Assembly (NCBI GenBank): GCA_943323675.2
Contig: CALPIR020000002.1
Location: forward strand, 1 to 35,027
Reading direction: 5' to 3'
Origin: Chitinophaga pinensis
Lineage (GTDB): Bacteria > Bacteroidota > Bacteroidia > UKL13-3
Length of the DNA stretch: 35,027 nt
The notes beneath the pieces are model-generated. The model saw only the letters and a program-made list of their open reading frames with translations. It ran no database searches and was not told where the DNA came from. Of this stretch, positions 2 through 22,872 are shown piece by piece (position 1 is the first letter of the stretch; each line of letters starts with the position of its first letter). Position numbers and translations under genes: made by a program.

Positions 2-2800
2 CTTTATACTTATGGTTGGAAAGGCTTAACTATGACCATGACTGATGCTCGTGGTTGTGTGTTTTCTTTGTTTAAGGATTCGGTTGTACAAGTTGCAGGT
101 GCAAGTACTAAGGTTGTGTTTGATAAATATACTGGCTGTACACCACTTGCTTTAACATCTTATGATAGCTCAACGTCTGATTACCCAATTATTAGACGGA
201 AATGGTTGTGGACTTCAACAGATTCAACAATTACCGATACACTAAAAAATGCATCATTTGTATTTAGTAAACCTCAAAGTATTCAGGCTGATGGTTATCC
301 CGTATCATTAATTATTACTGATAGTTTAGGTTGTGAGTTTATAGCCACTCAAAAAATTGTTCCATCAAGTCCAATTGCCGAAATTAATGTAACAAAGAAT
401 GTAACATGCGGCTCAACTCAATTGATTAATGCAGCTAATACAGATGGGAGTAAAGTTTTTTCGCCAGCCAATTATAGTTGGAAACAGGGTAGTTCAACTT
501 ATATTGGCTCTGTTTACAATACTATATTTAACTTGGCTGATTCAACTTATTTGTTTGAGCTAACCGTTGTAGATTCTAATGGATGTATAGCAAATACAGA
601 TACTTTGATTAAAATTAGCAATAAGAAAACAACACTTGCGTTTTATGCTAATCCGAGTGTAAGAGCTTGTTACTTTCCAATTGTGCCCATTCAGTTATTC
701 GATACATCTGCTGTTGGATCTAGTGGTATTAAGTCAAGATATTGGACATTTGCATCAAATACAAGTACCCAATTAAGTCCAATATTTACCATTAGCAAAC
801 CTGGTAAATATGATGTTAGTTTAACTGTTACAGATAGTGCAGGCTGCGTAGATTCGCTTAAAATTAAAGATTATTTAGATTTAGGTGGACCTATGGGAAG
901 TTATACCTATAGCCCAAATAAAGGATGTGCACCCCATACAGTAAGGTTTCAAGTATTATCTCCCAATGCGCGTTACCATATTTGGGATTTGGGTAACGGA
1001 TTAGTAGACACGATGAAAGTGTTAGACGAACCATATACCTATAATGATGCAGGGACTTACTATCCAAGACTAACTTTGTATGACAGTAGTGGTTTGTGTG
1101 GTTATTCTTTTGATGCTATTGATTCGATTATTGTATTCGATAAGCCTGAACCTGACTTTGTTTCTGATACAACTAAAATTTGCTTTAATACTGAACTTAC
1201 CTTTGAAAATATAACGCCCAACAAGTCAGCGATAGTAAATTGGAAATGGATATTTAATAATGAAGAAGTATTGGGTGAAGGACCTATTATTAAGAAGTTT
1301 ACCCAGGCAGGCAAATACAATATTACCTTGATTGCTATTGATTCTAATGGATGTAGTGATACCATTACAAAATCTGATACACTTACTGTTTATAATGATG
1401 TTGTCGCTCCAAATATTCCTTCAGTTCATAGGGCAACGGTTATCGATAACAGCTCTAATTTATTTGTATTTAATCCAAGTAAAGAAGAAGATTTTTACAG
1501 CTATCGAATTTTTTATAATTACCTGAGTGCTTCGCCTCAATCATTTATTGATGTTTTAGCGGTAGCTGATACCTTTTACTTAGAAACTGGAATTAATACG
1601 CTTTTAAATCCTTATTCATATGCTATATCGGCCATAGATATTTGTAAGAATAGGAGTGCCGTGTCTCCTACACATACTACAGTTGAACTAAAGGCTTGGC
1701 CAATTGATAATGCTATTAAATTATCGTGGAGTCCATACAAAGGGTTTGGATCTATCAAGCGTTACGAGATTTGGCGTAACAATCCAGACTCGGGAATTGC
1801 ATTTTACCAGATAAAAGATGTTTCAGCTGGAACACTACAATACATTGATACCTCAATTTCTTGTTTCACAAATTATTACTATCGAATAAAAACGGTAGCG
1901 ATGGATGCTGATACATCAAAATATAGTTGGAGTGATACAAGTGGAGCTACACCTGTATATGTAAGTAGTTTACCAGGTACTAAAATTGTTAGAGTTACAG
2001 TTGTGAATGATAAGCAAGTATTGTTACAATGGGCTAAGAAATCTTATGAAGTAAGTTTTAAATATTTGATATTTAGAATGCGTGATGATGAGGCTAGTGC
2101 TACTTTTTACAAGGAAGTGTCTGATACATTTATGATTGATGAAAATGTATTAGTAGATGAACATAGCTATTCATACTTTGTTTATTTAAAAGATGCTTGC
2201 GGAGGAATTAGCTTGCTAAGTAATGAAGCAAAGACAATTTTATTGACAGTAGATTTAGTAAGAAATGACAGAGGATTATATGACCCAATTGTTTATTACA
2301 CCAAGTATCGAGAGTGGGTTAATGGTGTAAATAATTATGATGTTTTGTTTTATTATGACTCATTGGGAGTATATAGTAAGGTCTCAACCAATTCTGCTTC
2401 CGATACAACTTTCATTCATCAATATTTAACCCTGCCTCAAAGAAACTATTGCTACTCGGTTATTGCCAATGAGCTTAACGGGAATAAAACAACAAGTCAA
2501 TCAAATATTACTTGTGTTGGAACAGAACCAAGGGTGTATGTTCCAAATGTGTTTACCATAAACGGTGATGGTATAAATGAACGTTTGGTTGTAGGTGGTT
2601 TATTTATTGAGAACTATAAGATAAATATTTTTGATAGGTGGGGAAATAACGTTTTTGAAAGCAATAATAGAGATCTGTCTTGGGATGGCAATTTAGATGG
2701 CAAGCCAATGCCTTCAGGTGTTTATGTTTATTTGATAGAAGTTACAGGAAGAAGTAAGCAAAGGGTTGAAGTAACGGGTACTGTTACTTTAATTAGATAA
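2..2800 (+). CDS. Large cell-surface adhesin-like protein with tandem PKD-like repeats and a T9SS type B (gliding-motility CHU_C-type) C-terminal sorting domain; 5' end lies outside the window
   Basis: The frame is open from nt 2, with no stop before the first ATG at 32, so the N-terminus is cut by the window edge. There are five recurring modules with a D-S-x-G-C signature (ITDSLGC, VVDSNGC, VTDSAGC, LYDSSGLC, AIDSNGC). The last ~90 aa (VPNVFTINGDGINE...IFDRWGNNVFE...WDGNLDGKPMPSGVYVYLIEV) fit the type B T9SS CTD pattern. Confidence 0.8.
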   Translation, partial: LYTYGWKGLTMTMTDARGCVFSLFKDSVVQVAGASTKVVFDKYTGCTPLALTSYDSSTSDYPIIRRKWLWTSTDSTITDTLKNASFVFSKPQSIQADGYPVSLIITDSLGCEFIATQKIVPSSPIAEINVTKNVTCGSTQLINAANTDGSKVFSPANYSWKQGSSTYIGSVYNTIFNLADSTYLFELTVVDSNGCIANTDTLIKISNKKTTLAFYANPSVRACYFPIVPIQLFDTSAVGSSGIKSRYWTFASNTSTQLSPIFTISKPGKYDVSLTVTDSAGCVDSLKIKDYLDLGGPMGSYTYSPNKGCAPHTVRFQVLSPNARYHIWDLGNGLVDTMKVLDEPYTYNDAGTYYPRLTLYDSSGLCGYSFDAIDSIIVFDKPEPDFVSDTTKICFNTELTFENITPNKSAIVNWKWIFNNEEVLGEGPIIKKFTQAGKYNITLIAIDSNGCSDTITKSDTLTVYNDVVAPNIPSVHRATVIDNSSNLFVFNPSKEEDFYSYRIFYNYLSASPQSFIDVLAVADTFYLETGINTLLNPYSYAISAIDICKNRSAVSPTHTTVELKAWPIDNAIKLSWSPYKGFGSIKRYEIWRNNPDSGIAFYQIKDVSAGTLQYIDTSISCFTNYYYRIKTVAMDADTSKYSWSDTSGATPVYVSSLPGTKIVRVTVVNDKQVLLQWAKKSYEVSFKYLIFRMRDDEASATFYKEVSDTFMIDENVLVDEHSYSYFVYLKDACGGISLLSNEAKTILLTVDLVRNDRGLYDPIVYYTKYREWVNGVNNYDVLFYYDSLGVYSKVSTNSASDTTFIHQYLTLPQRNYCYSVIANELNGNKTTSQSNITCVGTEPRVYVPNVFTINGDGINERLVVGGLFIENYKINIFDRWGNNVFESNNRDLSWDGNLDGKPMPSGVYVYLIEVTGRSKQRVEVTGTVTLIR

Positions 2801-9568: not shown

Positions 9569-9871
9569 TTACTTGCCTAATAAACTGCCTAACCCTGGAA
9601 GTCCGCCCATTAAGTTTTTCATTTCATTTGCCGAAACCATTTCTGATTTGTTGATGGCATCTTCAATGGCGATACACAAATAATCCTGCAATTCAAATTT
9701 GCGTTCTGGCAGCACTAAATAAGTTTCAATGTGTACATTTTTTACTTTTTTATTGCCATCCATTGTTATGGTAACATCGCCTGATGCTGCTTGACCTTGA
9801 ACGGTAACACCAGATAAACGATGCTTAATTTCTTCTACTTTTTTTTGTGCTTCTGCTAATTTTCCGAACAT
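9569..9871 (-). CDS. ybaB: YbaB/EbfC-family nucleoid-associated protein
   Basis: 100 aa. MFGKLAEAQKKVEEIK..., a GDVTITMDGNKKVKNVHIE core and a GLPGLG tail are characteristic of this family. Confidence 0.8.
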   Translation of the reverse strand: MFGKLAEAQKKVEEIKHRLSGVTVQGQAASGDVTITMDGNKKVKNVHIETYLVLPERKFELQDYLCIAIEDAINKSEMVSANEMKNLMGGLPGLGSLLGK

Positions 9872-10087
9872 AATTGATTTGTGTTTGTTAGTATTGGCAA
9901 GATACTATTTTGGTACATGGCCAAACAAGTGCTTGCGGGTATATTTTATAGCTTGTTTTTAAAGATTTGATTGATAGTTTATTGGCTTGTTTTATAAAAG
10001 GCAAGCAAACTTAAATCATCCTTTGAATAGTGCTTAAATTGGTTAAATTCGCCCAACTTTTCAAGAAAAAAATTAATAAAACCTGAT

Positions 10088-12943
10088 ATGCAAATCTCAA
10101 GCAACTATCGTGACGAATTTGTAAAACGTCACATCTCACCGATGGAAAATGATACTGAGGCTATGCTAAAAACAATTGGTGTAGCAACTATCGATCAATT
10201 AATTGATGAAACTATTCCATCACACATACGCCTAAAAGATCGAATGAAATTACCTGAAGCAATGGGCGAAATGGAATTATTAGCCATGCTTAAGGAAATT
10301 TCAGAAAAGAATATCATCAACAAAAACTTTATTGGTACTGGTTATTATGGTACTCACACACCAAATGTGGTGCTAAGAAATATATTTGAAAATCCTGGAT
10401 GGTATACAGCTTATACGCCTTATCAAGCAGAAATTGCTCAGGGTCGTTTAGAGGCATTACTAAATTACCAAACCATGATTGTTGATCTAACCGGGATGGA
10501 AATTGCAAACGCAAGTTTGTTAGATGAAAGTACGGCAGCTGCTGAAGCGATGCATATGCTGCACGCTGAAAGTAAAAACGATAAAGCAACGAAGTTTTTT
10601 GTTTCTGAATTGTGCTTTCCGCAAACCATTGATGTGTTAAAGACACGTACCGAACCTATAGGTGTTGAGTTGGTAATTGGTAACCATGATACCATCACGT
10701 TTGATGAAACTTATTTTGGTGCATTAATTCAATACCCAGCTGGCAATGGCGAGGTGTTTGATTACAGTTCATTTATGGCTAAAGCTATTGCTATGGGCGT
10801 AAAGGTAGCTGTTGCTGCAGATTTATTAAGTTTAACTTTATTAACCCCTCCAGGCGAGTGGGGGGCTGATGTGGTATTAGGTTCTGCACAACGTTTTGGT
10901 GTGCCAATGGGTTACGGTGGACCGCACGCAGGTTACTTTGCAACTAAAGACGCCTACAAGAGACAAATGCCAGGTCGTTTAATTGGTGTGTCGATTGATG
11001 CTCAAGGTAACAAAGCCTTGCGTATGGCTTTGCAAACGCGCGAGCAACATATTAAACGCGAAAAAGCAACATCAAATATTTGTACTGCACAAGTATTACT
11101 TTCAATAATGGCCAGCATGTATGGTGTTTACCATGGCCCTAAAGGATTAAAAGGAATTGCATCACGAGTACACGGATTAACAGCACAGTTAGGTAATGTA
11201 TTAAACGAGGTTGGTTTCAAACAAAAAAACAATCACTTTTTTGATACTTTGTTGGTTGAAGTGCCAAGTGCAGATAAAGCGGTTACTGATTGCGAAACTA
11301 AATCGATTAATATTCGTAAAGTAGATGATAAACACATTGGTATATCATTAGATGAAACGCACACAATAACTGATGTAAATGCATTGATATCTGCATTAAC
11401 AGGAAAAGAATCACATTTAAAGGCTCACGATACAACTGGTGTTCATACCCCTGCTAACTATACACGTGTAAGCGATTTTATGACACATGAGGTATTTAAT
11501 TCATACCACAGTGAGCATGAAATGCTGCGTTACATCAAATTGTTAGAATCAAAAGATTTATCGCTTTGCCATAGTATGATTGCATTAGGATCATGTACCA
11601 TGAAACTTAACGCTACAGCCGAAATGATTCCGGTTACCATGCCTGGATTTGGAGCTATGCATCCATTTGTGCCTCGCAACCAAGCCACTGGTTATACTCA
11701 AATATTTAACGAGCTAACTGATTACTTAAAAGAAGTAACTGGTTTTGCGGGTATGAGTTTGCAACCCAACTCAGGTGCATCAGGTGAGTACGCAGGTTTA
11801 ATGGTGATACGCGAGTACTTAAAATCAATAGGTCAAGGACACCGTAATATTGCTTTAATTCCTTCATCGGCACATGGTACTAACCCAGCAAGTGCTGCTA
11901 TGGCAGGAATGAAGGTTGTTGTTACTAAAACATTAGATAATGGTTATGTTGATATCGATGATTTGCGTGAAAAAGCAGAATTATACAAAGACAATTTAGC
12001 TTGTTTAATGGTTACTTATCCAAGTACTTATGGTGTATTTGAAGAACGTATTACTGAAGTTTGTGATTTAATTCATCAAAATGGAGGACAGGTTTATATG
12101 GACGGGGCTAACATGAATGCACAAGTTGGACTAACAAGCCCAGCAAATATAGGTGCCGATGTTTGCCACTTAAACTTACATAAAACATTCTGCATTCCTC
12201 ATGGTGGTGGTGGGCCAGGTATGGGCCCAATTGGTGTAGCAGCTCATTTGGTTCCTTTTTTACCAGGGCATGCAGTAGTTGATATGCAAGTTGGACATCA
12301 CGCCATGACCGCAGTAAGTGCTGCACCTTGGGGTAGTGCATCAATATTGTTAATCTCTTATGCATACATCCGTTTAATGGGTACACAAGGATTAGAAGAT
12401 GCAACTAAATATGCAATTTTAAATGCTAACTACATTAAAGCACGTTTAGAGAAGCATTATGAGATTTTGTACACAGGTAGTAACGGTCGTTGTGCACATG
12501 AAATGATTTTAGATACACGTGTATTTAAGGGAGCAAGCGGAATAGAGGCAGAAGACATTGCTAAGCGTTTAATTGATTATGGTTTCCATGCACCTACTAT
12601 GAGTTTTCCTGTTGCAGGTACCATTATGGTTGAGCCAACAGAAAGTGAACCTAAATCAGAGTTAGATCGTTTTTGTGATGCAATGATTGCCATTAAGCAA
12701 GAAGTAGAGGCTATTATTACTGGTGAAGCTGACAAGACAGATAATCCTTTAAAAAATGCGCCACACACGGCACATGTTGTAACCGCTGATGAATGGAATC
12801 ATAAGTACAGCCGTCAACTAGCTGCTTATCCTTTACCATATGTAAAAGCCGCTAAGTTTTGGCCAACAGTTGGGCGTGTAAATAACACCCACGGAGATAG
12901 AAACTTAATTTGTGCTTGTATTCCTACTGAGGCATACGCATAA
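10088..12943 (+). CDS. gcvP: Glycine dehydrogenase (decarboxylating), single-chain P-protein of the glycine cleavage system
   Basis: 951 aa with [21 protein letters not shown], and the PLP-lysine context [22 protein letters not shown]. Full-length match to the GcvP pattern. Confidence 0.95.
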
Positions 12944-17637: not shown

Positions 17638-18651
17638 ATGAATTTTCAACACACCATACAAATACTGTCCCAATTGGGTGCCTTTTTTAAACAAGAAGCT
17701 GCCACAGATAATCCCGTTTTTATTCGTGCATACCAACAAAACCCTTGGTTTACAAACGAGTATGTGAAGAAAGCACTTGGCGCTTGGAGTAGCGAACTAA
17801 CTAACGAAAAATTAAATAATTGGCTAATGAATTATCAAAATACCCCACAACCTCAATCCCAAAAAGTGGTGGTAATAATGGCGGGTAACATCCCATTGGT
17901 TGGTTTACATGATTTATTGTCGGTTCTGTTATGCGGCCACAAGGCAATTGTTAAACTATCTAGCGATGACACAGTGCTAATGAAATGGGTCATTGAAAAC
18001 TTAGTTCGATTGGCTCCTGAATTAAGCACACAAATAGAAATTACTGAAGAACGCTTGCCAAAAGATTTTGATGCTGTAATAGCAACGGGTAGTAATAATA
18101 CCAATCGTTATTTTGAATATTATTTTAAAAATAAATCCTCGTTATTTCGCAAAGCACGAACAAGCGTGGCTGTTTTAACAGGAAATGAAACGCTAGATGA
18201 TTTGCATAAATTAGGCGAAGATATTTTTACCTATTTTGGTTTGGGGTGCCGCAATGTGTCAAAAATTTATCTGCCAGAAGGTTACAATATCGCTACATTT
18301 TATGAAGGTATAGAAGACTTTTTTGATCACATTAATCATAATAAATATGCCAATAATTACACCTACCACAAGGCTATTTTATTGATGAATTTAAACAAGC
18401 ATTTTGATAATAATTTTTTATTGTTGAAGGAGGATAGCGCAATTGCTTCTCCACTTGGAGTAATGTTTTATGAGCACTATTCCGACATTAATGAATTGGC
18501 GCAAACACTCGAATTACAAAAAGAAAACATACAATGTGTGGTGAGTAAAGGCTCTATTAACAATAGTATACCCTTAGGTAGAGCACAACAACCTGAACTA
18601 ACCGATTATGCCGATGGCGTAGACACTGTTAAGTTTTTAATGGAGTTGTAG
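17638..18651 (+). CDS. LuxC-type acyl-CoA reductase family protein
   Basis: 337 aa. NPWFT near the N-terminus, MAGNIPLVGLHD, GLGCRNVSK (candidate catalytic Cys) and overall length match the acyl-CoA reductase (LuxC-like) family common in Bacteroidota. Confidence 0.6.
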   Translation: MNFQHTIQILSQLGAFFKQEAATDNPVFIRAYQQNPWFTNEYVKKALGAWSSELTNEKLNNWLMNYQNTPQPQSQKVVVIMAGNIPLVGLHDLLSVLLCGHKAIVKLSSDDTVLMKWVIENLVRLAPELSTQIEITEERLPKDFDAVIATGSNNTNRYFEYYFKNKSSLFRKARTSVAVLTGNETLDDLHKLGEDIFTYFGLGCRNVSKIYLPEGYNIATFYEGIEDFFDHINHNKYANNYTYHKAILLMNLNKHFDNNFLLLKEDSAIASPLGVMFYEHYSDINELAQTLELQKENIQCVVSKGSINNSIPLGRAQQPELTDYADGVDTVKFLMEL

Positions 18652-18696: not shown

Positions 18697-20742
18697 TTAC
18701 TTTTGTTTGTAAAAGAGATGCATAAAAACAAAATGAGGTAAACTGATACACGCGAGGAAGACGAAAAATGATGGAAGTATTGTTTTAACTTGATTGGGTT
18801 CGCGAATATTTAATAATACACAAGTGATTAAAATTACAAATGCACCTAATGTGTGTGGCAGAGCCTTTTTATAAAGGCCTAATGAATTTGTTTTTAGTTG
18901 CTGCTGTAAATGGGACCACGCATTTAAACTGTGTTGGCAAATAAAATACATAGAGAATGCAATCAATAGATTAGTAAACGCTCCAACTATAAGCAGTGTT
19001 ACAAGGGCATAAGTGCTTGATTTATTGATGCTAATTGCTAGTATTAATAAATAAAAAATGGCCAATATAGCAGTTGGAATTGCATATTTAATTATAAGGT
19101 CCTCATACAAATTAATAAATTCCAATCCCTTAATATTTATAATAATATCTATTGATTCGTGGACATGCGTGAATATAATAAACATTAGAATAGAAGCCCC
19201 TAACATCAATGCCTTTAAATATGTTGATATGGCTATAACTGTTAAATTTATTTCTTGAAGTTCTGATTCTCCAAAATGAAAAGATGAATAAATAATAAAA
19301 ATTAGAAGTGATAAGGAAGGAAAGAATTGCCAAAAAAAGTAGTAAATAATTATTGTTATTACATACTTCACTATAAATATTGAGAGAGATTTCTTGTTGT
19401 TTGATATGGTTAAATGATCCAATGCACCATGCGGAATTCCAACCCAAAGCATTCCCAATGTAATGCATAAATAACTGTAATAAAGCGCTATGGTTGGGTT
19501 GTATTGTATTATGATGAAGTATACCAGTAATGTTAAGGCGGTAATCAAATACCTTGTGGAATTGTGTTTCAACGCATACACCAGCAACGATTTAAGGAAT
19601 GGGGCCAATGGCAGCGATTTAAATATTTTAACCTCTTGAATTAGTGATGTTTGTTCATCGAGGAACAAAAAGATGGTCTTTACATTTTGGGCTAAAAAAA
19701 GTTTGGTGAATATTCTTTTGCCTTCCTTAGGCCAATAAAGTAATATAATAAGCAGTAATGTGTCGTAAAACCTGAATCGCTTCTTTACCTTAAGTGAAAA
19801 GGTATTTATATCCTTACCGTTGGAATTGATGATTTCTTTTTTTACCATCTCGGCAAAGCGAAACATGTTTTTAAATCCATAACCCGTACTAGGTTTAATT
19901 AAATTAGCGTTGGTTCCAGTTTTTAAAATACCGCTGTATATGGCGGGTTGATGCAAGTGAGTAGTCATCGGGATACAACCTATTTCTTCATCTATAATTT
20001 CATAGTTCCCAACATTGCTTTGAAGTGCTTCGGTCAAGACTGCTTTAGCATAATCAATTTCTATTTTTTCTGCACCAAAACGGGTTAATTCAACTAATGC
20101 TTCATTACAAGAATAAGGTAGTGTATAAATAAATTGTGTGAAGTTGTTTTGGTCTACATTGAAGTTCATCATTTCAAATGTGTTTTCTTGAAATAAATCT
20201 TGATCACATTTTATTCTGACTCCATAAAATGATTGGTGTAGGTGAATAACGTTATTGTTCGGAGTATCGTTTTTGGATGGTGCGCTATCAAAAAGATGAT
20301 ATGTGCAGAAATTACCATGAGAGGTTTTTATCGTATAAATGTCTTTGTTTACGGATATTTCGTTTGTGGAGTAATTGAAAACGGGAATATTTGCGTTTAA
20401 TAACTTATCACGTACATAATTGTACAAATCAATACTTCTTATTAAATAATATGGTTGATCGGATATGTTTTGTTTTTGACCACCGTTTATAACAACATTA
20501 TTATAATTACGGTTGATGATTGGTTTAAGATCAATTACTATTGGATCATTTGGATGTGCCCAAAAACAATACGTTTTATCATTTATGCTTTTGTGTGATG
20601 GTTCTATTATGGCAATTTTTTTATTCTGAAAAAGTTCGTCTTTTAAGAGTGACAAAATAATAAGGCTATTACTTGCTCCAAGTCCTGAGAATATGTAATC
20701 ATAAACAAGTTCTTCGTTATTAAATTGACTTGAGAATTCCAT
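18697..20742 (-). CDS. crtY-blh: Bifunctional fusion protein: N-terminal lycopene cyclase (CrtY-type) domain plus C-terminal Brp/Blh beta-carotene 15,15'-dioxygenase domain
   Basis: Continuous 681-codon ORF. Residues 1 to ~390 carry YDYIFSGLGASNS (dinucleotide fold), FIYTLPYSCNEALVELTRF, IKPSTGYGF and RFRFYDTLLL, all lycopene-cyclase signatures. Residues ~396-681 form 8-9 hydrophobic helices with the His landmarks GIPHGALDH, SSFHFGESE, CQHSLNAWSH and LPHF, typical of Brp/Blh. The gene sits directly downstream of the rhodopsin gene. Confidence 0.8.
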   Translation of the reverse strand: MEFSSQFNNEELVYDYIFSGLGASNSLIILSLLKDELFQNKKIAIIEPSHKSINDKTYCFWAHPNDPIVIDLKPIINRNYNNVVINGGQKQNISDQPYYLIRSIDLYNYVRDKLLNANIPVFNYSTNEISVNKDIYTIKTSHGNFCTYHLFDSAPSKNDTPNNNVIHLHQSFYGVRIKCDQDLFQENTFEMMNFNVDQNNFTQFIYTLPYSCNEALVELTRFGAEKIEIDYAKAVLTEALQSNVGNYEIIDEEIGCIPMTTHLHQPAIYSGILKTGTNANLIKPSTGYGFKNMFRFAEMVKKEIINSNGKDINTFSLKVKKRFRFYDTLLLIILLYWPKEGKRIFTKLFLAQNVKTIFLFLDEQTSLIQEVKIFKSLPLAPFLKSLLVYALKHNSTRYLITALTLLVYFIIIQYNPTIALYYSYLCITLGMLWVGIPHGALDHLTISNNKKSLSIFIVKYVITIIIYYFFWQFFPSLSLLIFIIYSSFHFGESELQEINLTVIAISTYLKALMLGASILMFIIFTHVHESIDIIINIKGLEFINLYEDLIIKYAIPTAILAIFYLLILAISINKSSTYALVTLLIVGAFTNLLIAFSMYFICQHSLNAWSHLQQQLKTNSLGLYKKALPHTLGAFVILITCVLLNIREPNQVKTILPSFFVFLACISLPHFVFMHLFYKQK

Positions 20743-20769: not shown

Positions 20770-20812
20770 AAAAAAAAAGAGGACATTCAGTAAACTGAAG
20801 AGTCCTCTTTTT
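20770..20812 (-). terminator. Strong intrinsic terminator between the rhodopsin gene and crtY-blh
   Basis: The minus strand reads aagaggac-t-cttcag-ttta-ctgaa-t-gtcctctt followed by about nine T. The stem is 8 + 5 bp around a small internal loop. It starts 18 nt after the rhodopsin stop. Confidence 0.8.
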
Positions 20813-20829
20813 AAATGATAATGTAAAAT

Positions 20830-21546
20830 TTAGTCTTCGCTTCTGCTTAAAGCATAAATAACTAAACCAAAACCAATTTTGTTTATAGCATCTGCTATAT
20901 TGTATACAATATCCATTGCATGCAATGCTGCTGCTTTATCTTGTACTAATTTCATTCCAAATAAACCACCTTCTGTACCTAAAATGTATCCAAGTGGGTA
21001 AATTGCCCAACCAACTAAAACGAACCAACCTAAAATACGGGTTGCTTTAGCAACTTGTGGACCTGCAGTTTGCGATAAACTTGCTACTTCTCCAAACCAT
21101 ACTAAGTATGCAATGTAGAAATAAGCTGCTCCTGAAATAACTCCCCAAAGTACACTTTGAGTTGGGTCTAATACTTCACCAATGTAACCAGTAACTAGCA
21201 TCACTAAAGAAGCAAATATTAATTTCCAAAGTAAACCGATTTTAGCACCTGCTTTTTTGGTAATTAAATAAAATTCAACACACATCAACGGCACTGTTAA
21301 AATCCAATCTACATATCTAAAGAATGTAGGTGAATCACCTGTTTCTAAGTTGTAACCTCTCATGTAGTAGTAGTGTACTGCTGCAATGAATGTGATTAGA
21401 CCAGAAACTAATACTGACGTTCTCCATTTTTGAGACGTGTTACTTAACTCGAAAAAGAAAAATACTGAGGCAGCCATCATGGCCATTGTTCCGATAAAAA
21501 ACGTAAAAGCTACGTAATTATCACTAGCAATTTTTAAATGTTCCAT
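20830..21546 (-). CDS. Proteorhodopsin-type light-driven proton pump (DTE motif, Met at the tuning site)
   Basis: 238 aa, seven hydrophobic helices. Helix C is RYVDWILTVPLMCVEF (D80/T84/E91 = DTE; M88 at the L/Q105 tuning position). H58 is in AVHYYYMRG (the PR His75 equivalent). The Schiff-base Lys K223 is in NIADAINKIGFGL (codon ttt at 20878-20880 on the plus strand). Confidence 0.9.
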   Translation of the reverse strand: MEHLKIASDNYVAFTFFIGTMAMMAASVFFFFELSNTSQKWRTSVLVSGLITFIAAVHYYYMRGYNLETGDSPTFFRYVDWILTVPLMCVEFYLITKKAGAKIGLLWKLIFASLVMLVTGYIGEVLDPTQSVLWGVISGAAYFYIAYLVWFGEVASLSQTAGPQVAKATRILGWFVLVGWAIYPLGYILGTEGGLFGMKLVQDKAAALHAMDIVYNIADAINKIGFGLVIYALSRSED

Positions 21547-21652
21547 TTTAAAACAATTAGTTGTAACCTACTCGTATGGCTTTTCGGATTACGCCCCGTT
21601 TTTTAGAGTGGTTTCTGGACTCCACAATGCTAAATTAACAAAAGGTTTCATA

Positions 21653-21704
21653 TATGGTTTTCAAGAAGTTAAAACGAACCGCTGATTTTTATTTGAAAAC
21701 CATA
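21653..21704. repeat. Perfect 12-bp inverted repeat upstream of the rhodopsin gene (candidate operator or 5' leader hairpin)
   Basis: tatggttttcaa (21653-21664) and ttgaaaaccata (21693-21704) are exact reverse complements separated by 28 nt. A third aaccata half-site lies at 21734-21740. The repeat is 107-158 nt upstream of the ATG. Confidence 0.5.
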
Positions 21705-21995
21705 ACTTTTTAAAATAAGTATTTTAACCTCATAACCATATTTTACTTGCTAATTAGTTTTTTTTTATAGTATAAAAACTACAATATGACGTGCAATAAA
21801 AGTTTTATAAAATAAATTAAAAATGACACTAATTATTTGTCATATCCTTGGAAATTTATTGAATACACAATCCAATTTTTAAATAAACGGTTTTACCGAG
21901 CATCAATTTGGTTATTTTTAACGTTTACTTATTTTACTTTTTTATGCTTTGGGCGTTTTAAATACTCACGTTTAAGACTTGTTAACTTTTCAAAT

Positions 21996-22037
21996 AAAAA
22001 AAAATCCATTATTTACCTTATTGATAAATAATGGATT
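21996..22037 (-). terminator. Rho-independent terminator of the CxxCH T9SS gene
   Basis: The minus strand has a perfect 12-13 bp AT-rich stem (aatccattattta / taaataatggatt), a 9-nt loop and then nine T; 23 nt after the stop. Confidence 0.7.
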
Positions 22038-22059
22038 GTGTTATCGTTAGCCTGATGAT

Positions 22060-22872
22060 TTAAAACTTCACGAATTTTTTCGTGTACGTGTTTCCACTTT
22101 CGGTGGTTAATAAAATGGTGTAAATACCTTTTGATAAAAATTGAATGTTAAGTTGATTGCCAATCAAATCTGAATTATTAATTACTTGCAAACCATTAAT
22201 GTTAAACACAGTAACCTTGTTGTTAGCACTATGGTGAGCAGTTGCTATGTTGATTATATCAATTGCTGGATTTGGGTAAACAGAAATGAAATCAGTTCTT
22301 AAATTAGTTGTTAATCCTACAAATCCTTGTTTATAAAGGCGTAACCTGGTTAAGTATGTTTTATCTCCATCTTTATGTCCCTCAAAATTAGAATTAAATG
22401 CTCCATAAAATATAACCTCGTTAACATCATTAGGCGCAACCCAGTCAAAAGTCCAACTTAAAGAGTCCACTCCATCAACCCCAGCAGCACGGTAGGTCGC
22501 GTATTTATCATTACCAACCAATTTTGTCTTTGTCGTGTCCGTAATTAATAGGGTGCCTAGTAAATCGCCATTAATAGCTTGTGGTGAAATTGAGAATCCA
22601 AAACGAGTTCCTCCAATTTCTGTATTTGTAGCTTTAATCGTGTATCGTTGGCCAGGAATAAATCCTGTTTGTGGAACAGTTGATGTAATCCAACCCTCCA
22701 CATCAGTGGCAGTTCCACCATGACAAACCGTGCAGTTTTTTAAGCTATCTCCTGGAGAGCCGGTATAGCCAGGTTCTGTTCCATCTCGTTTGCCAAACTT
22801 TATTCCTGTAAACGAGCCTAAAACCACATAAACTAATGCGCCTGCAAATATATAAGGTATTATTTTTTTCAT
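22060..22872 (-). CDS. Secreted protein with a single CxxCH motif and a T9SS type A (Por_Secre_tail) C-terminal sorting domain
   Basis: N-terminal signal/anchor MKKIIPYIFAGALVYVVLGS. GYTGSPGDSLKNCTVCHGG holds C47-T-V-C50-H51 (nt 22720-22734). The C-terminal ~75 aa (ISVYPNPAIDIINI...GIYTILLTTESGNTYTKKFVKF) fit the type A CTD pattern. Confidence 0.7.
   Translation of the reverse strand: MKKIIPYIFAGALVYVVLGSFTGIKFGKRDGTEPGYTGSPGDSLKNCTVCHGGTATDVEGWITSTVPQTGFIPGQRYTIKATNTEIGGTRFGFSISPQAINGDLLGTLLITDTTKTKLVGNDKYATYRAAGVDGVDSLSWTFDWVAPNDVNEVIFYGAFNSNFEGHKDGDKTYLTRLRLYKQGFVGLTTNLRTDFISVYPNPAIDIINIATAHHSANNKVTVFNINGLQVINNSDLIGNQLNIQFLSKGIYTILLTTESGNTYTKKFVKF

What the first reader, a model, noticed from the sequence alone, without database searches (positions are those of the whole stretch)
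18697..20742. Lycopene cyclase and Blh beta-carotene dioxygenase fused into one 681-aa membrane protein next to the opsin
One uninterrupted ORF joins a CrtY-type lycopene cyclase domain to a polytopic Brp/Blh domain. The cyclase part (aa 1 to ~390) has YDYIFSGLGASNS, FIYTLPYSCNEALVELTRF, IKPSTGYGF and RFRFYDTLLL. The Blh part (aa ~396-681) has GIPHGALDH, SSFHFGESE, CQHSLNAWSH and LPHF. In the rhodopsin-bearing Flavobacteria I know of, blh is a stand-alone gene beside the opsin and crtY sits in a separate crt cluster. The fusion places the last two steps of retinal synthesis (lycopene -> beta-carotene -> 2 retinal) on one membrane-embedded polypeptide directly downstream of the opsin. This suggests substrate channelling. 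It also yields a two-gene photosystem cassette that needs only lycopene from the host. I cannot judge from sequence alone how widely this architecture is already catalogued; similar fusions may have been noted sporadically.
Basis: partly seen in the sequence, partly recalled or inferred. Interest (0 to 1): 0.75.

Follow-up and report, generated by a model that had tools for sequence, protein, structure and literature searches.

The report
Fused lycopene cyclase–retinal synthase beside proteorhodopsin
A freshwater Bacteroidota genome carries one 681-residue membrane protein that joins the last two enzymes of retinal synthesis, right after its light-driven proton pump gene; the fusion is real, but it is common in public data, so it is an uncharacterised family rather than a rarity.

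Summary
Window 18697-20742, on the minus strand, is one uninterrupted 681-aa ORF. Residues 40-385 match the Pfam lycopene cyclase family and residues 430-677 match the Brp/Blh beta-carotene dioxygenase family. The ORF starts 87 nt downstream of a proteorhodopsin gene (20830-21546, same strand).

It is not an assembly artefact. The identical protein occurs in five separate assemblies, and 76 of 78 related genomic loci keep both domains in one frame.

It is not rare. All 120 best database hits are about 680-aa fusions, and 93 of the 151 sequences classified (the query plus the 150 best 50%-identity cluster representatives) are complete fusions. At least 79 loci in species-representative genomes carry it, nearly all labelled Bacteroidota and many from lakes. 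In 67 of those 79 loci the opsin lies immediately upstream.

The four predicted iron-binding histidines of Blh and the cyclase FAD motif are invariant. The junction has a fixed length and is predicted to be helical.

I found no paper describing this bacterial CrtY-Blh fusion, and no experiment on it. The closest described analogue is the CrtI-CrtB-CrtYc/d-Blh protein of Thecamonas. Substrate channelling is plausible but untested. A conserved terminator-like hairpin lies between opsin and fusion gene, so "two-gene operon" needs qualification. Interest is moderate to low.

The parts
18697..20742 (-). crtY-blh fusion gene, 681 aa plus stop codon
   Evidence: One ORF. Both Pfam domains match above their cut-offs. 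The identical protein is found in 5 assemblies.
19567..20742 (-). Cyclase part, aa 1-392: an FAD-type (CrtY/LCY family) lycopene cyclase domain
   Evidence: PF05834 covers aa 40-385. The motif around G20/G22/A23/N25 and residues E214 and E218 are invariant or nearly so in 66 homologues. The AlphaFold2 model has a PHBH / geranylgeranyl-reductase-like flavoprotein fold: Foldseek E about 1e-9 to 1e-10 against Tet(50/51/56), UbiH and GGR. The domain boundary at aa 392/393 matches the split seen in locus L068.
18700..19566 (-). Blh part, aa 393-681: a polytopic Brp/Blh beta-carotene 15,15'-dioxygenase domain
   Evidence: PF15461 covers aa 430-677, and TIGR03753 is above its cut-off. H438, H489, H604 and H670 are invariant. 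Their spacing matches His21/78/188/256 of Blh Q4PNI0. Hydrophobic helices run from aa 396 to the C-terminus.
19501..19557 (-). Extra hydrophobic helix, aa 396-414, between the cyclase and the Blh core
   Evidence: It lies N-terminal of the Pfam and TIGRFAM Blh models, which begin at aa 426-430. It is predicted to be helical, with mean pLDDT about 84-95 over residues 391-420. The distance from P378 to H438 is fixed at 60 residues in 62 of 66 homologues. Its role as a topology adaptor is inferred.
20770..20812 (-). Terminator-like hairpin with a T-run, in the 87-nt spacer between opsin and fusion gene
   Evidence: MFE -18.9 kcal/mol, z = -4.3, and 0 of 200 shuffles fold as well. Comparable hairpins, with different stem sequences, occur in about 58 of 60 spacers of related loci (counted by eye).
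20830..21546 (-). Proteorhodopsin gene, 238 aa
   Evidence: PF01036 E 1.5e-43. The best solved structures are proteorhodopsins 9jov and 9jou, E 7e-84. Read from the sequence: the motif RYVDWILTVPLMCVEF gives D-T-E with Met at the spectral tuning site, and the retinal Lys is in NKIGFG.
21547..22059 (-). 513-nt AT-rich region (26% GC) upstream of the opsin; presumed promoter region
   Evidence: The hairpin at 22003-22037 is the terminator of the upstream gene. No promoter was identified.

Best explanation
The gene encodes a genuine bifunctional retinal-synthesis enzyme.

How it most likely works:
1. The N-terminal domain is a cytoplasm-facing, membrane-associated, FAD-type lycopene beta-cyclase (CrtY/LCY family). 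It converts lycopene in the membrane to beta-carotene.
2. The C-terminal domain has about 10 helices and is a Brp/Blh non-haem-iron dioxygenase. [quoted passage not shown]
3. The retinal loads the proteorhodopsin encoded immediately upstream.

The two domains are joined by a fixed-length, structured helical connection. This includes one extra hydrophobic helix (aa 396-414) that probably brings the chain to the correct side of the membrane for the Blh core.

The protein belongs to a large and old family of CrtY-Blh fusions. The family is found mainly in Bacteroidota and is usually paired with the opsin gene.

The likely benefit of the fusion is that beta-carotene is made next to the enzyme that cleaves it, at 1:1 stoichiometry. 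Retinal supply then depends only on the host's lycopene pool.

The hairpin between opsin and enzyme gene probably keeps enzyme expression well below opsin expression.

Shown here: the domain identities, conserved catalytic residues, integrity of the ORF, family size and opsin linkage. Inferred: both enzyme activities, membrane topology, channelling and transcriptional attenuation.
For: - Both domains match above the Pfam cut-offs, and the Blh part also passes the NCBIfam cut-off.
- Alignment of 66 fused homologues (45-86% identical to the query) shows invariant H438, H489, H604 and H670. Their spacings of 51, 115 and 66 residues compare with 57, 110 and 68 for His21/78/188/256 of Blh Q4PNI0, the proposed iron site.
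- The cyclase part has an invariant dinucleotide-binding motif and invariant E214 and E218. Its predicted fold is the FAD-monooxygenase / geranylgeranyl-reductase type.
- The AlphaFold2 model has mean pLDDT 87.5 and pTM 0.80 over the whole 681 residues, and the junction is helical and well scored. There are no indels at the junction: 60 residues separate P378 from H438 in 62 of 66 sequences.
- The ORF is intact in 5 separate assemblies and in 76 of 78 loci tested.
- Family size: 120 of 120 top hits are fusions. 93 of the 151 sequences classified (the query plus the 150 best 50%-identity cluster representatives) are complete fusions.
- Opsin linkage: the opsin is immediately upstream in 67 of 79 loci. 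It is also adjacent in two fused members only about 30% identical to the query, P0251 and P0253.
- No crtE, crtB or crtI gene and no second cyclase lies nearby, either in the window or in three other contexts.
- The spacer hairpin is conserved in structure but not in sequence.
Against: - No activity has been measured for any member of this family.
- The cyclase part scores far below the NCBIfam CrtY cut-offs. Beta-bicyclase specificity is therefore assumed, not shown.
- I could not inspect the model's coordinates or its predicted aligned error. A shared substrate path between the two domains is therefore unverified.
- Charge counts in the loops do not settle the membrane topology.
- Whether these genomes also carry a separate crtY, or crtEBI at all, could not be checked. 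Only 10 kb on each side of each locus was available.
- About 10 loci, including marine Flavobacteriales MAGs, have the fusion with no opsin in the available flank. Opsin linkage is therefore common but not obligatory.
Confidence: 0.75

Rival explanations
1. The fusion gives no kinetic channelling. It persists only because it guarantees co-inheritance, co-expression and 1:1 stoichiometry of two consecutive enzymes in small, streamlined genomes. Beta-carotene is released into the membrane and re-bound.
For: - Carotenoids are confined to the bilayer anyway, so proximity may add little.
- One locus (L068) encodes the two halves as overlapping ORFs, split exactly at the junction. This suggests the halves can exist separately.
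- Cyclase-only sequences are scattered among fused ones in a crude NJ tree.
- The marine members are not opsin-linked.
Against: - The junction has a fixed length, is conserved and is predicted to be structured, rather than being a variable tether.
- pTM 0.80 for the whole chain suggests a defined inter-domain arrangement.
- The L068 split lies in an A6 homopolymer and may be a sequencing error.
- Many of the cyclase-only entries may be fragments.
Confidence: 0.35
2. The N-terminal domain is not a lycopene beta-bicyclase. It could be a monocyclase making gamma-carotene, a cyclase with another specificity, or a degenerate flavoprotein domain that only anchors or regulates Blh.
For: - The CrtY equivalog models of NCBIfam score only 42.5 and 73 bits against cut-offs of 215 and 209.5.
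- There is no sequence match to any solved structure.
- The first Gly of the classic GxGxxG motif is Ser in the window protein (SGLGAS).
Against: - The Pfam family hit is strong and near full length, covering model positions 24-378 of 380.
- 60 or more positions of the cyclase part are invariant across homologues down to 45% identity. These include the nucleotide-binding motif and two glutamates in the LVELTRF segment. That pattern argues for a working enzyme.
- The persistent pairing with Blh and an opsin makes beta-carotene supply the obvious role. The absence of any other cyclase within 10 kb points the same way.
Confidence: 0.12
3. The single ORF is an assembly or sequencing artefact: a 1-nt indel that merges two adjacent genes, crtY and blh.
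For: One related MAG (L068) does show two ORFs with an ATGA overlap at the junction. Another (L064) has a frame break inside Blh.
Against: - The identical 681-aa protein is found in 5 separate assemblies.
- 76 of 78 loci tested, and more than 100 database proteins of 640-700 aa, keep one frame.
- There is no homopolymer at the window's junction.
- No length variation occurs at the junction.
Confidence: 0.02

Closest known systems
Stand-alone Blh (beta-carotene 15,15'-dioxygenase of uncultured marine bacterium 66A03, UniProt Q4PNI0) and stand-alone CrtY, as in proteobacterial PR photosystem clusters (crtE-crtI-crtB-crtY-blh)
   Same: The same two enzyme families and the same pathway steps. The same conserved histidines as the proposed iron site, His21/78/188/256. 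Both are linked to a proteorhodopsin gene.
   Different: Here the two enzymes form one polypeptide. One extra hydrophobic helix (aa 396-414) precedes the Blh core. crtE, crtB and crtI are not linked.
Marine flavobacterial PR-blh gene pairs with crtY in a separate crt cluster
   Same: A Bacteroidota host. A proteorhodopsin of the D-T-E type with Met at the tuning site. The retinal-forming enzyme is encoded next to the opsin.
   Different: In this lineage the cyclase has been brought to the opsin locus and fused to Blh.
Thecamonas trahens CrtI-CrtB-CrtYc/d-Blh four-domain protein (Rius et al. 2023, PMC10016063)
   Same: A natural polypeptide in which a lycopene cyclase domain is directly followed by a C-terminal Blh domain. 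It was interpreted as serving retinal production.
   Different: It is eukaryotic. Its cyclase is of the unrelated heterodimer-derived membrane CrtYc/d type, not the FAD-type CrtY. It also carries CrtI and CrtB.
Other natural carotenoid-enzyme fusions: fungal CrtYB, thraustochytrid CrtIBY, verrucomicrobial and marine CrtIB/CrtBI (PMC10284914, PMC2889829 Table S2)
   Same: Consecutive carotenoid-pathway enzymes fused in one protein, some within rhodopsin gene clusters. Improved metabolite transfer was proposed as the rationale.
   Different: Different enzyme pairs. None of these lists includes a CrtY-Blh pair.
Fused CrtYcd cyclases of archaea and Algoriphagus, in which two halves are joined by an additional transmembrane segment (as summarised in PMC12016392)
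   Same: A precedent for an extra membrane helix inserted at a fusion point in carotenoid enzymes, to reconcile topology.
   Different: A different protein family. The adaptor role of aa 396-414 in this protein is only inferred.

Membership tests
Lycopene cyclase family, FAD type (CrtY/CrtL/LCY; Pfam PF05834) | Profile match above the curated family threshold, over most of the model | tested here: met
   PF05834 scores 112.5 bits against a cut-off of 23.4. It covers aa 40-385 and model positions 24-378 of 380.
Lycopene cyclase family, FAD type (CrtY/CrtL/LCY; Pfam PF05834) | N-terminal dinucleotide (FAD/NAD(P)H) binding motif and a flavoprotein (PHBH/GGR-like) fold | tested here: met
   The motif is DYIFSGLGASNS, with G22, A23, N25 and S26 invariant and G20 at 90% or more. 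The AlphaFold2 model matches FAD monooxygenases and geranylgeranyl reductases in Foldseek at E 4e-10 to 1e-8.
Bacterial CrtY lycopene beta-cyclase, strict sense (NCBIfam TIGR01789 equivalog; TIGR01790 subfamily) | Score above the curated equivalog or subfamily cut-off | tested here: not met
   TIGR01789 scores 42.5 against 215.2, and TIGR01790 scores 73.1 against 209.5. The domain is a divergent family member, so beta-bicyclase specificity is inferred from context only.
Bacterial CrtY lycopene beta-cyclase, strict sense (NCBIfam TIGR01789 equivalog; TIGR01790 subfamily) | Conversion of lycopene to beta-carotene | not testable with these tools
   This needs expression in a crtEBI strain followed by HPLC.
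Brp/Blh beta-carotene 15,15'-dioxygenase (Pfam PF15461; NCBIfam TIGR03753) | Profile match above the curated cut-offs | tested here: met
   PF15461 scores 116.5 bits against 28. TIGR03753 scores 127.5 against 95.25, covering model positions 2-259 of 260.
Brp/Blh beta-carotene 15,15'-dioxygenase (Pfam PF15461; NCBIfam TIGR03753) | Conserved histidines proposed to bind Fe2+ (His21, 78, 188 and 256 of Q4PNI0, plus His192) | tested here: met
   H438, H489, H604 and H670 are invariant in 66 fused homologues. H611, H443 and H675 are conserved at 90% or more. The spacing matches the Q4PNI0 numbering quoted. The correspondence rests on spacing and motifs, not on a direct alignment to Q4PNI0.
Brp/Blh beta-carotene 15,15'-dioxygenase (Pfam PF15461; NCBIfam TIGR03753) | Polytopic all-helical membrane protein (nine helices predicted for Q4PNI0) | tested here: met
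   Hydropathy analysis and the AlphaFold2 model both give continuous hydrophobic helices from aa 396 to 677. There is one helix more than the Blh core.
Brp/Blh beta-carotene 15,15'-dioxygenase (Pfam PF15461; NCBIfam TIGR03753) | Cleavage of beta-carotene to retinal | not testable with these tools
   This needs a biochemical or heterologous assay.
CrtY-Blh fusion family, as present in sequence databases | Both domains in one ORF of about 650-700 aa, with cyclase N-terminal and Blh C-terminal | tested here: met
   The window protein is 100% identical to P0001. 120 of 120 top hits share the architecture. 93 of the 151 sequences classified (the query plus the 150 best cluster representatives) are complete fusions.
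Proteorhodopsin (the neighbouring gene) | Bac_rhodopsin fold, D-T-E proton-pump motif, retinal-binding Lys, and closest relatives being PRs | tested here: met
   PF01036 E 1.5e-43. The best PDB matches are proteorhodopsins at E 7e-84 to 1e-50. The motifs were read from the sequence.

The most novel reading that the evidence does not exclude
The CrtY-Blh fusion is a true channelling machine. Lycopene enters the cyclase, and beta-carotene passes through a continuous hydrophobic path into the Blh cavity without mixing with the membrane carotenoid pool. Retinal supply for the opsin is thereby insulated from the cell's other carotenoid branches.

The extra helix (aa 396-414) would be an evolved topology adaptor. 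The conserved hairpin between opsin and enzyme gene would set a fixed high opsin-to-enzyme ratio.

Together, opsin, attenuator and fusion gene would form a self-contained, widely spread 'add-on photosystem' for any lycopene-producing Bacteroidota.
Probability: 0.25. Interest if true: 0.55.

Novelty: new member of a known kind. Interest (0 to 1): 0.33.

Why it matters
In a large group of mostly freshwater Bacteroidota, the normal form of the rhodopsin photosystem appears to be opsin plus one fused enzyme. This differs from the textbook arrangements of opsin plus blh, or the crtEIBY-blh cluster.

Three consequences follow:
- Annotation and pathway surveys that count crtY and blh as separate genes will label these proteins as only one of the two. 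JGI calls them 'lycopene beta-cyclase' and NCBI calls them 'Brp/Blh dioxygenase'. Such surveys may therefore score retinal pathways as incomplete.
- The family is a ready-made natural test case for whether fusing two membrane carotenoid enzymes gives substrate channelling.
- It is a compact single-gene part for making retinal from lycopene in engineered hosts.

None of this changes current understanding of retinal biosynthesis. The chemistry and both enzyme families are known.

Tried and rejected
**Artefact hypothesis: rejected.** The identical protein is in five assemblies, the frame is conserved in relatives, and the junction has no homopolymer.

**Rarity: rejected**.

**Literature.** I used all ten search slots, combining crtY, blh, lycopene cyclase, fusion, fused, bifunctional, rhodopsin and Bacteroidetes (one search was a rejected query). 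I also read the relevant passages of nine papers, plus Klassen 2010 Table S2. None describes a bacterial CrtY-Blh fusion.
- The Salinibacter ruber genome paper, where I vaguely recall a cyclase/Brp fusion being mentioned, is not held. That memory is unverified.
- Subscription journals are not covered, so absence of a description is not proven.

**Mobile or viral carriage.** The scan of IMG/VR viral contigs found no relative.

**Solved structures.**
- Sequence search of the PDB gave no match to either domain.
- Fold search matched only generic FAD monooxygenases, for the cyclase half.

**Single origin of the fusion.** An NJ tree of cyclase domains from 93 fused and 27 cyclase-only sequences was star-like. 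Cyclase-only sequences lay partly in two separate clades and partly scattered among fused ones. This is inconclusive, because many short entries may be fragments.

**Recent horizontal transfer of the opsin alone.** I considered this because the opsin is 86-96% identical where the fusion is only 35-50% identical. I rejected it as the main cause. Opsin DNA identity is only 77-83%, so the differences are mostly synonymous, which points to strong purifying selection.

**Topology from the positive-inside rule:** indecisive.

**Sigma-70 promoter scan:** not informative for Bacteroidota.
Full report
**1. The observation**

The ORF list shows one uninterrupted ORF at 18697..20742 on the minus strand, with an ATG start and 681 aa.

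- Pfam places Lycopene_cycl (PF05834) on aa 40-385 at 112.5 bits against a cut-off of 23.4.
- Pfam places the Brp/Blh dioxygenase family BCD (PF15461) on aa 430-677 at 116.5 bits against a cut-off of 28.
- NCBIfam confirms the Blh half above its curated cut-off: TIGR03753 scores 127.5 against 95.25.
- The strict CrtY models match only weakly: TIGR01790 scores 73 against 209.5, and TIGR01789 scores 42.5 against 215.

The cyclase half is therefore a clear but divergent member of the lycopene cyclase family.

The gene immediately upstream on the same strand (20830..21546, 238 aa) is a microbial rhodopsin (PF01036, E 1.5e-43).
- Its best solved relatives are proteorhodopsins (9jov and 9jou, E 7e-84).
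- The sequence RYVDWILTVPLMCVEF gives the D-T-E proton-pump motif, with Met at the spectral tuning position.
- The retinal Lys lies in NKIGFG (read).

The spacer between opsin and fusion is 87 nt.

**2. Is the single ORF real?**

- The identical 681-aa protein is encoded on five contigs from five different samples or assemblies, in the same neighbourhood.
- The junction DNA (about 19560-19575) has no homopolymer run.
- A scan of one genome per GTDB species gave 209 stretches encoding relatives. The best 80 matches fall in 79 distinct loci, and all are near-full-length matches.
- I checked the reading frame in 78 loci: 73 of these related loci plus the 5 contigs of the window's own sequence. 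The cyclase and Blh matches lie in one ORF in 76 of them.

The two exceptions:
- L064 has a frame break inside the Blh half.
- L068 has two ORFs that overlap by ATGA exactly at the domain boundary (aa 392/393). The overlap lies inside an A6 run. One extra A would restore the fusion, so this may be a sequencing error, or a real fission.

An assembly artefact in the window is effectively excluded.

**3. How common is the architecture?**

It is very common.

- In the 5.8-billion-protein search, all 120 best hits carry both Pfam domains. All but one partial sequence are 661-708 aa long, and identities range from 45 to 100%.
- In the exhaustive search of 50%-identity cluster representatives, 3615 proteins hit at E < 1e-3. 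I classified 151 sequences, the query plus the best 150, with domain-wise phmmer:
  - 93 are complete fusions;
  - 27 are cyclase-only, 3 are Blh-only and 28 are partial;
  - many of the short entries are likely fragments from short contigs.
- The genome loci are almost all Bacteroidota metagenome-assembled genomes. By record title they include Crocinitomicaceae, Sediminibacterium, Ferruginibacter and other Chitinophagaceae, Saprospiraceae, Flavobacteriales and Cryomorphaceae.
  - Many isolate names refer to lakes, ponds and reservoirs.
  - One subgroup carries ERR599... run-accession names, which I take to be marine (Tara) MAGs; this is my reading of the names.
  - None of the best 80 is from a cultured isolate.
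  - A few are labelled Parcubacteria, Burkholderiales or Pseudomonadota. These may be binning errors.
- Source databases name these proteins either 'lycopene beta-cyclase' (JGI) or 'beta-carotene 15,15'-dioxygenase, Brp/Blh family' (NCBI). Each name covers only half of the protein.

**4. Linkage to the opsin**

I ran tblastn of the window's opsin against all loci.

- In 67 of the 79 genome loci the opsin lies immediately upstream on the same strand, usually 82-102 nt away.
- In two loci (L010, L011) it lies about 2 kb downstream.
- In about 10 loci no opsin is present in the available flank. Several of these flanks are very short.
- In the marine Flavobacteriales MAGs L066 and L070 the fusion sits among housekeeping genes (MutS, a SpoU methylase, a class II aminoacyl-tRNA synthetase), with no opsin within 10 kb.
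- Two fused members only about 30% identical to the query are still next to an opsin. In P0251 the opsin is upstream. In P0253 it is convergent, downstream.

No crtE, crtB or crtI gene and no second cyclase or Blh gene lies in the 35-kb window, nor in the other contexts examined. Lycopene must therefore come from genes elsewhere in the genome. I could not check this.

**5. Anatomy of the protein**

An alignment of 66 fused homologues (A1) gives 56% mean column identity.

*Cyclase half.* The nucleotide-binding motif is conserved: G22, A23, N25 and S26 are invariant, and G20 is at 90% or more. NDKTxCFW, the segment E214-L216-E218-T220-R221-F222 and IKPSxGY are also invariant.

*Blh half.*
- H438, H489, H526, H604 and H670 are invariant. 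H443, H611 and H675 are conserved at 90% or more.
- A 2026 preprint on Blh Q4PNI0 proposes His21, 78, 188 and 256 as the iron site in a nine-helix bundle. It also states that no experimental structure exists.
- The spacings here are 51, 115 and 66 residues, against 57, 110 and 68 in Q4PNI0. H438, H489, H604 and H670 are therefore the likely equivalents.

*Helices and junction.*
- Hydropathy analysis and the AlphaFold2 model show continuous hydrophobic helices from aa 396 to 677. The model has mean pLDDT 87.5 and pTM 0.80.
- The Pfam and TIGRFAM Blh models begin at aa 426-430. His21 of Q4PNI0 maps to H438. Helix 396-414 is therefore an extra helix placed before the Blh core.
- The junction is helical (helices at 379-392 and 396-414). 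It scores a mean pLDDT of 84-95 over residues 371-420.
- The junction has a fixed length: 60 residues separate P378 from H438 in 62 of 66 sequences, with essentially no gaps.

A pTM of 0.80 for a 681-residue two-domain chain suggests a defined inter-domain arrangement. I could not inspect the coordinates or the predicted aligned error.

*Structural relatives.* Foldseek against the PDB finds only FAD monooxygenases and geranylgeranyl reductases for the N-terminal half (E about 1e-9 to 1e-10). That is the fold expected for this cyclase family. Neither half has a sequence match in the PDB.

**6. How it most likely works**

This section is inference built on established knowledge of CrtY and Blh.

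1. The flavoprotein half cyclises both ends of membrane-dissolved lycopene to give beta-carotene.
2. The Blh half cleaves beta-carotene at the 15,15' bond to give two retinal molecules.
3. The retinal binds the opsin Lys.

Because the connection is rigid and of fixed length, beta-carotene is produced beside the Blh entrance. The fusion also enforces 1:1 stoichiometry and co-inheritance of the two activities. Whether there is true channelling is untested.

The extra helix may act as a topology adaptor between a cytoplasmic cyclase and a Blh core whose N-terminus would otherwise face the other side of the membrane. Fused CrtYcd cyclases offer a precedent for an added membrane segment. Loop-charge counts do not settle the topology.

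**7. The spacer between opsin and fusion**

The 87-nt spacer folds into an A-run / GC-rich stem / T9 hairpin at window 20770-20812. Its MFE is -18.9 kcal/mol, z = -4.3, and 0 of 200 shuffles fold as well.

Of 60 spacers folded from related loci, about 58 contain a comparable strong hairpin followed by a T-run, by my visual count. The stem sequences differ between lineages, so the structure is conserved rather than the sequence.

This looks like an intrinsic terminator or attenuator between two co-directional genes. The simplest reading is abundant opsin mRNA plus low read-through expression of the enzyme. An independent promoter in the 25-35 nt downstream of the hairpin cannot be excluded. The sigma-70 scan is uninformative for Bacteroidota. 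The word 'operon' should therefore be used with caution.

**8. Different evolutionary rates**

- The opsin is 86-100% identical at the protein level in most loci, while the adjacent fusion is only 35-55% identical.
- Opsin DNA identity is only 77-83%, so most opsin differences are synonymous.
- Opsin identity and fusion identity are uncorrelated (Spearman -0.09, n = 54).
- A second opsin type, 71-76% identical, accompanies some fusions.

This points to very strong purifying selection on the opsin and relaxed constraint on the enzyme. It does not point to recent transfer of the opsin alone.

**9. Comparison with what is known**

Known cases:
- Separate crtY and blh genes in PR photosystem clusters.
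- Blh 66A03 (Q4PNI0) as the reference enzyme.
- PR-blh gene pairs in marine flavobacteria. This is from my own knowledge and was not tested here.
- Natural carotenoid-enzyme fusions: CrtYB, CrtIBY, CrtIB/CrtBI and fused CrtYcd.
- The Thecamonas trahens CrtI-CrtB-CrtYc/d-Blh protein, in which a cyclase of the unrelated CrtYc/d type is followed by Blh.

I found no paper that mentions an FAD-type CrtY fused to Blh in bacteria. I used all ten search slots, one of which was a rejected query, and read passages of nine papers. Klassen's 2010 table of carotenoid fusion proteins does not list it. The library lacks most subscription journals, and the Salinibacter genome paper was not available. Absence of a description is therefore not proven.

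In sequence databases the architecture is abundantly present and auto-annotated.

**10. Verdict**

- The annotation is right, and the fusion is real.
- The window's gene is an ordinary member, with 100% identical copies already public, of a large fusion family. That family is catalogued in databases but has not been characterised experimentally.
- I file it as a new member of a known kind, namely natural fusions of consecutive carotenoid or retinal-pathway enzymes.
- Interest is moderate to low. A specialist would not be very surprised. The practical value lies in three things: annotation and pathway surveys, a clean natural test of channelling between two membrane enzymes, and a compact part for making retinal from lycopene.

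Noticed in passing
window 20770-20812 (-); spacers in L006-L084: There is a strong hairpin with flanking A-run and T-run between the opsin stop and the fusion start (dG -18.9, z -4.3). A comparable hairpin, with lineage-specific stem sequences, occurs in about 58 of 60 related spacers, which are mostly 82-102 nt long. It is probably a conserved terminator or attenuator that sets the opsin-to-enzyme expression ratio.
   Followed up: partly
window 20830-21546 compared with L006-L084: The opsin protein is 86-100% identical across species whose neighbouring fusion protein is only 35-55% identical. Opsin DNA is only 77-83% identical, so the changes are mostly synonymous. A second opsin type (71-76% identical) occurs in L010, L021, L022, L027, L034, L057 and L084. 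Opsin identity and fusion identity are uncorrelated (Spearman -0.09, n = 54).
   Followed up: partly
L068 1585-1600: In one MAG the cyclase and Blh halves are separate ORFs that overlap by ATGA, exactly at aa 392/393 of the fusion. The overlap lies inside an A6 run (ATTAAAAAATGAAC). This is either a 1-nt homopolymer error or a natural fission with translational coupling.
   Followed up: partly
L064 about 9848-10695: The Blh half is split over two frames. This is a frameshift, and may be a pseudogene or an assembly error.
   Followed up: no
L066 7973-13675; L070 3799-9493: In these Flavobacteriales MAGs (marine, judging by their names) the fusion is not next to an opsin. It sits after a SpoU methylase gene and a conserved 462-aa ORF with no Pfam match, and before a class II aminoacyl-tRNA synthetase gene.
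   Followed up: partly
L085 7111-10076; L087 8001-10865: Fused proteins only about 30% identical to the query are still adjacent to an opsin. One is labelled Pseudomonadota, which may be a binning error. In one case the opsin is upstream and co-directional. In the other it is convergent, just downstream.
   Followed up: partly
window 17638-18651 (+): A LuxC-like acyl-CoA reductase family gene (PF05893, E 1.7e-8) converges on the fusion gene, with only 45 nt between the two stop codons. It is conserved at this position only in the closest relatives (L006-L008), with a weaker same-strand match (47%) just downstream of the fusion in L030. It is probably unrelated to the photosystem.
   Followed up: no
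window 21547-22059: The intergenic region upstream of the opsin is unusually long (513 nt) and AT-rich (26% GC, against 35% for the whole window). No promoter was identified.
   Followed up: no
window 32-2800 (+) and 22060-22872 (-): These genes encode type IX secretion cargo proteins (a PKD + CHU_C protein and a Por_Secre_tail protein). This is consistent with a Bacteroidota origin for the window.
   Followed up: no
window 19130-19468 (-): A 112-aa ORF lies inside the fusion gene in another frame. It is most likely spurious.
   Followed up: no
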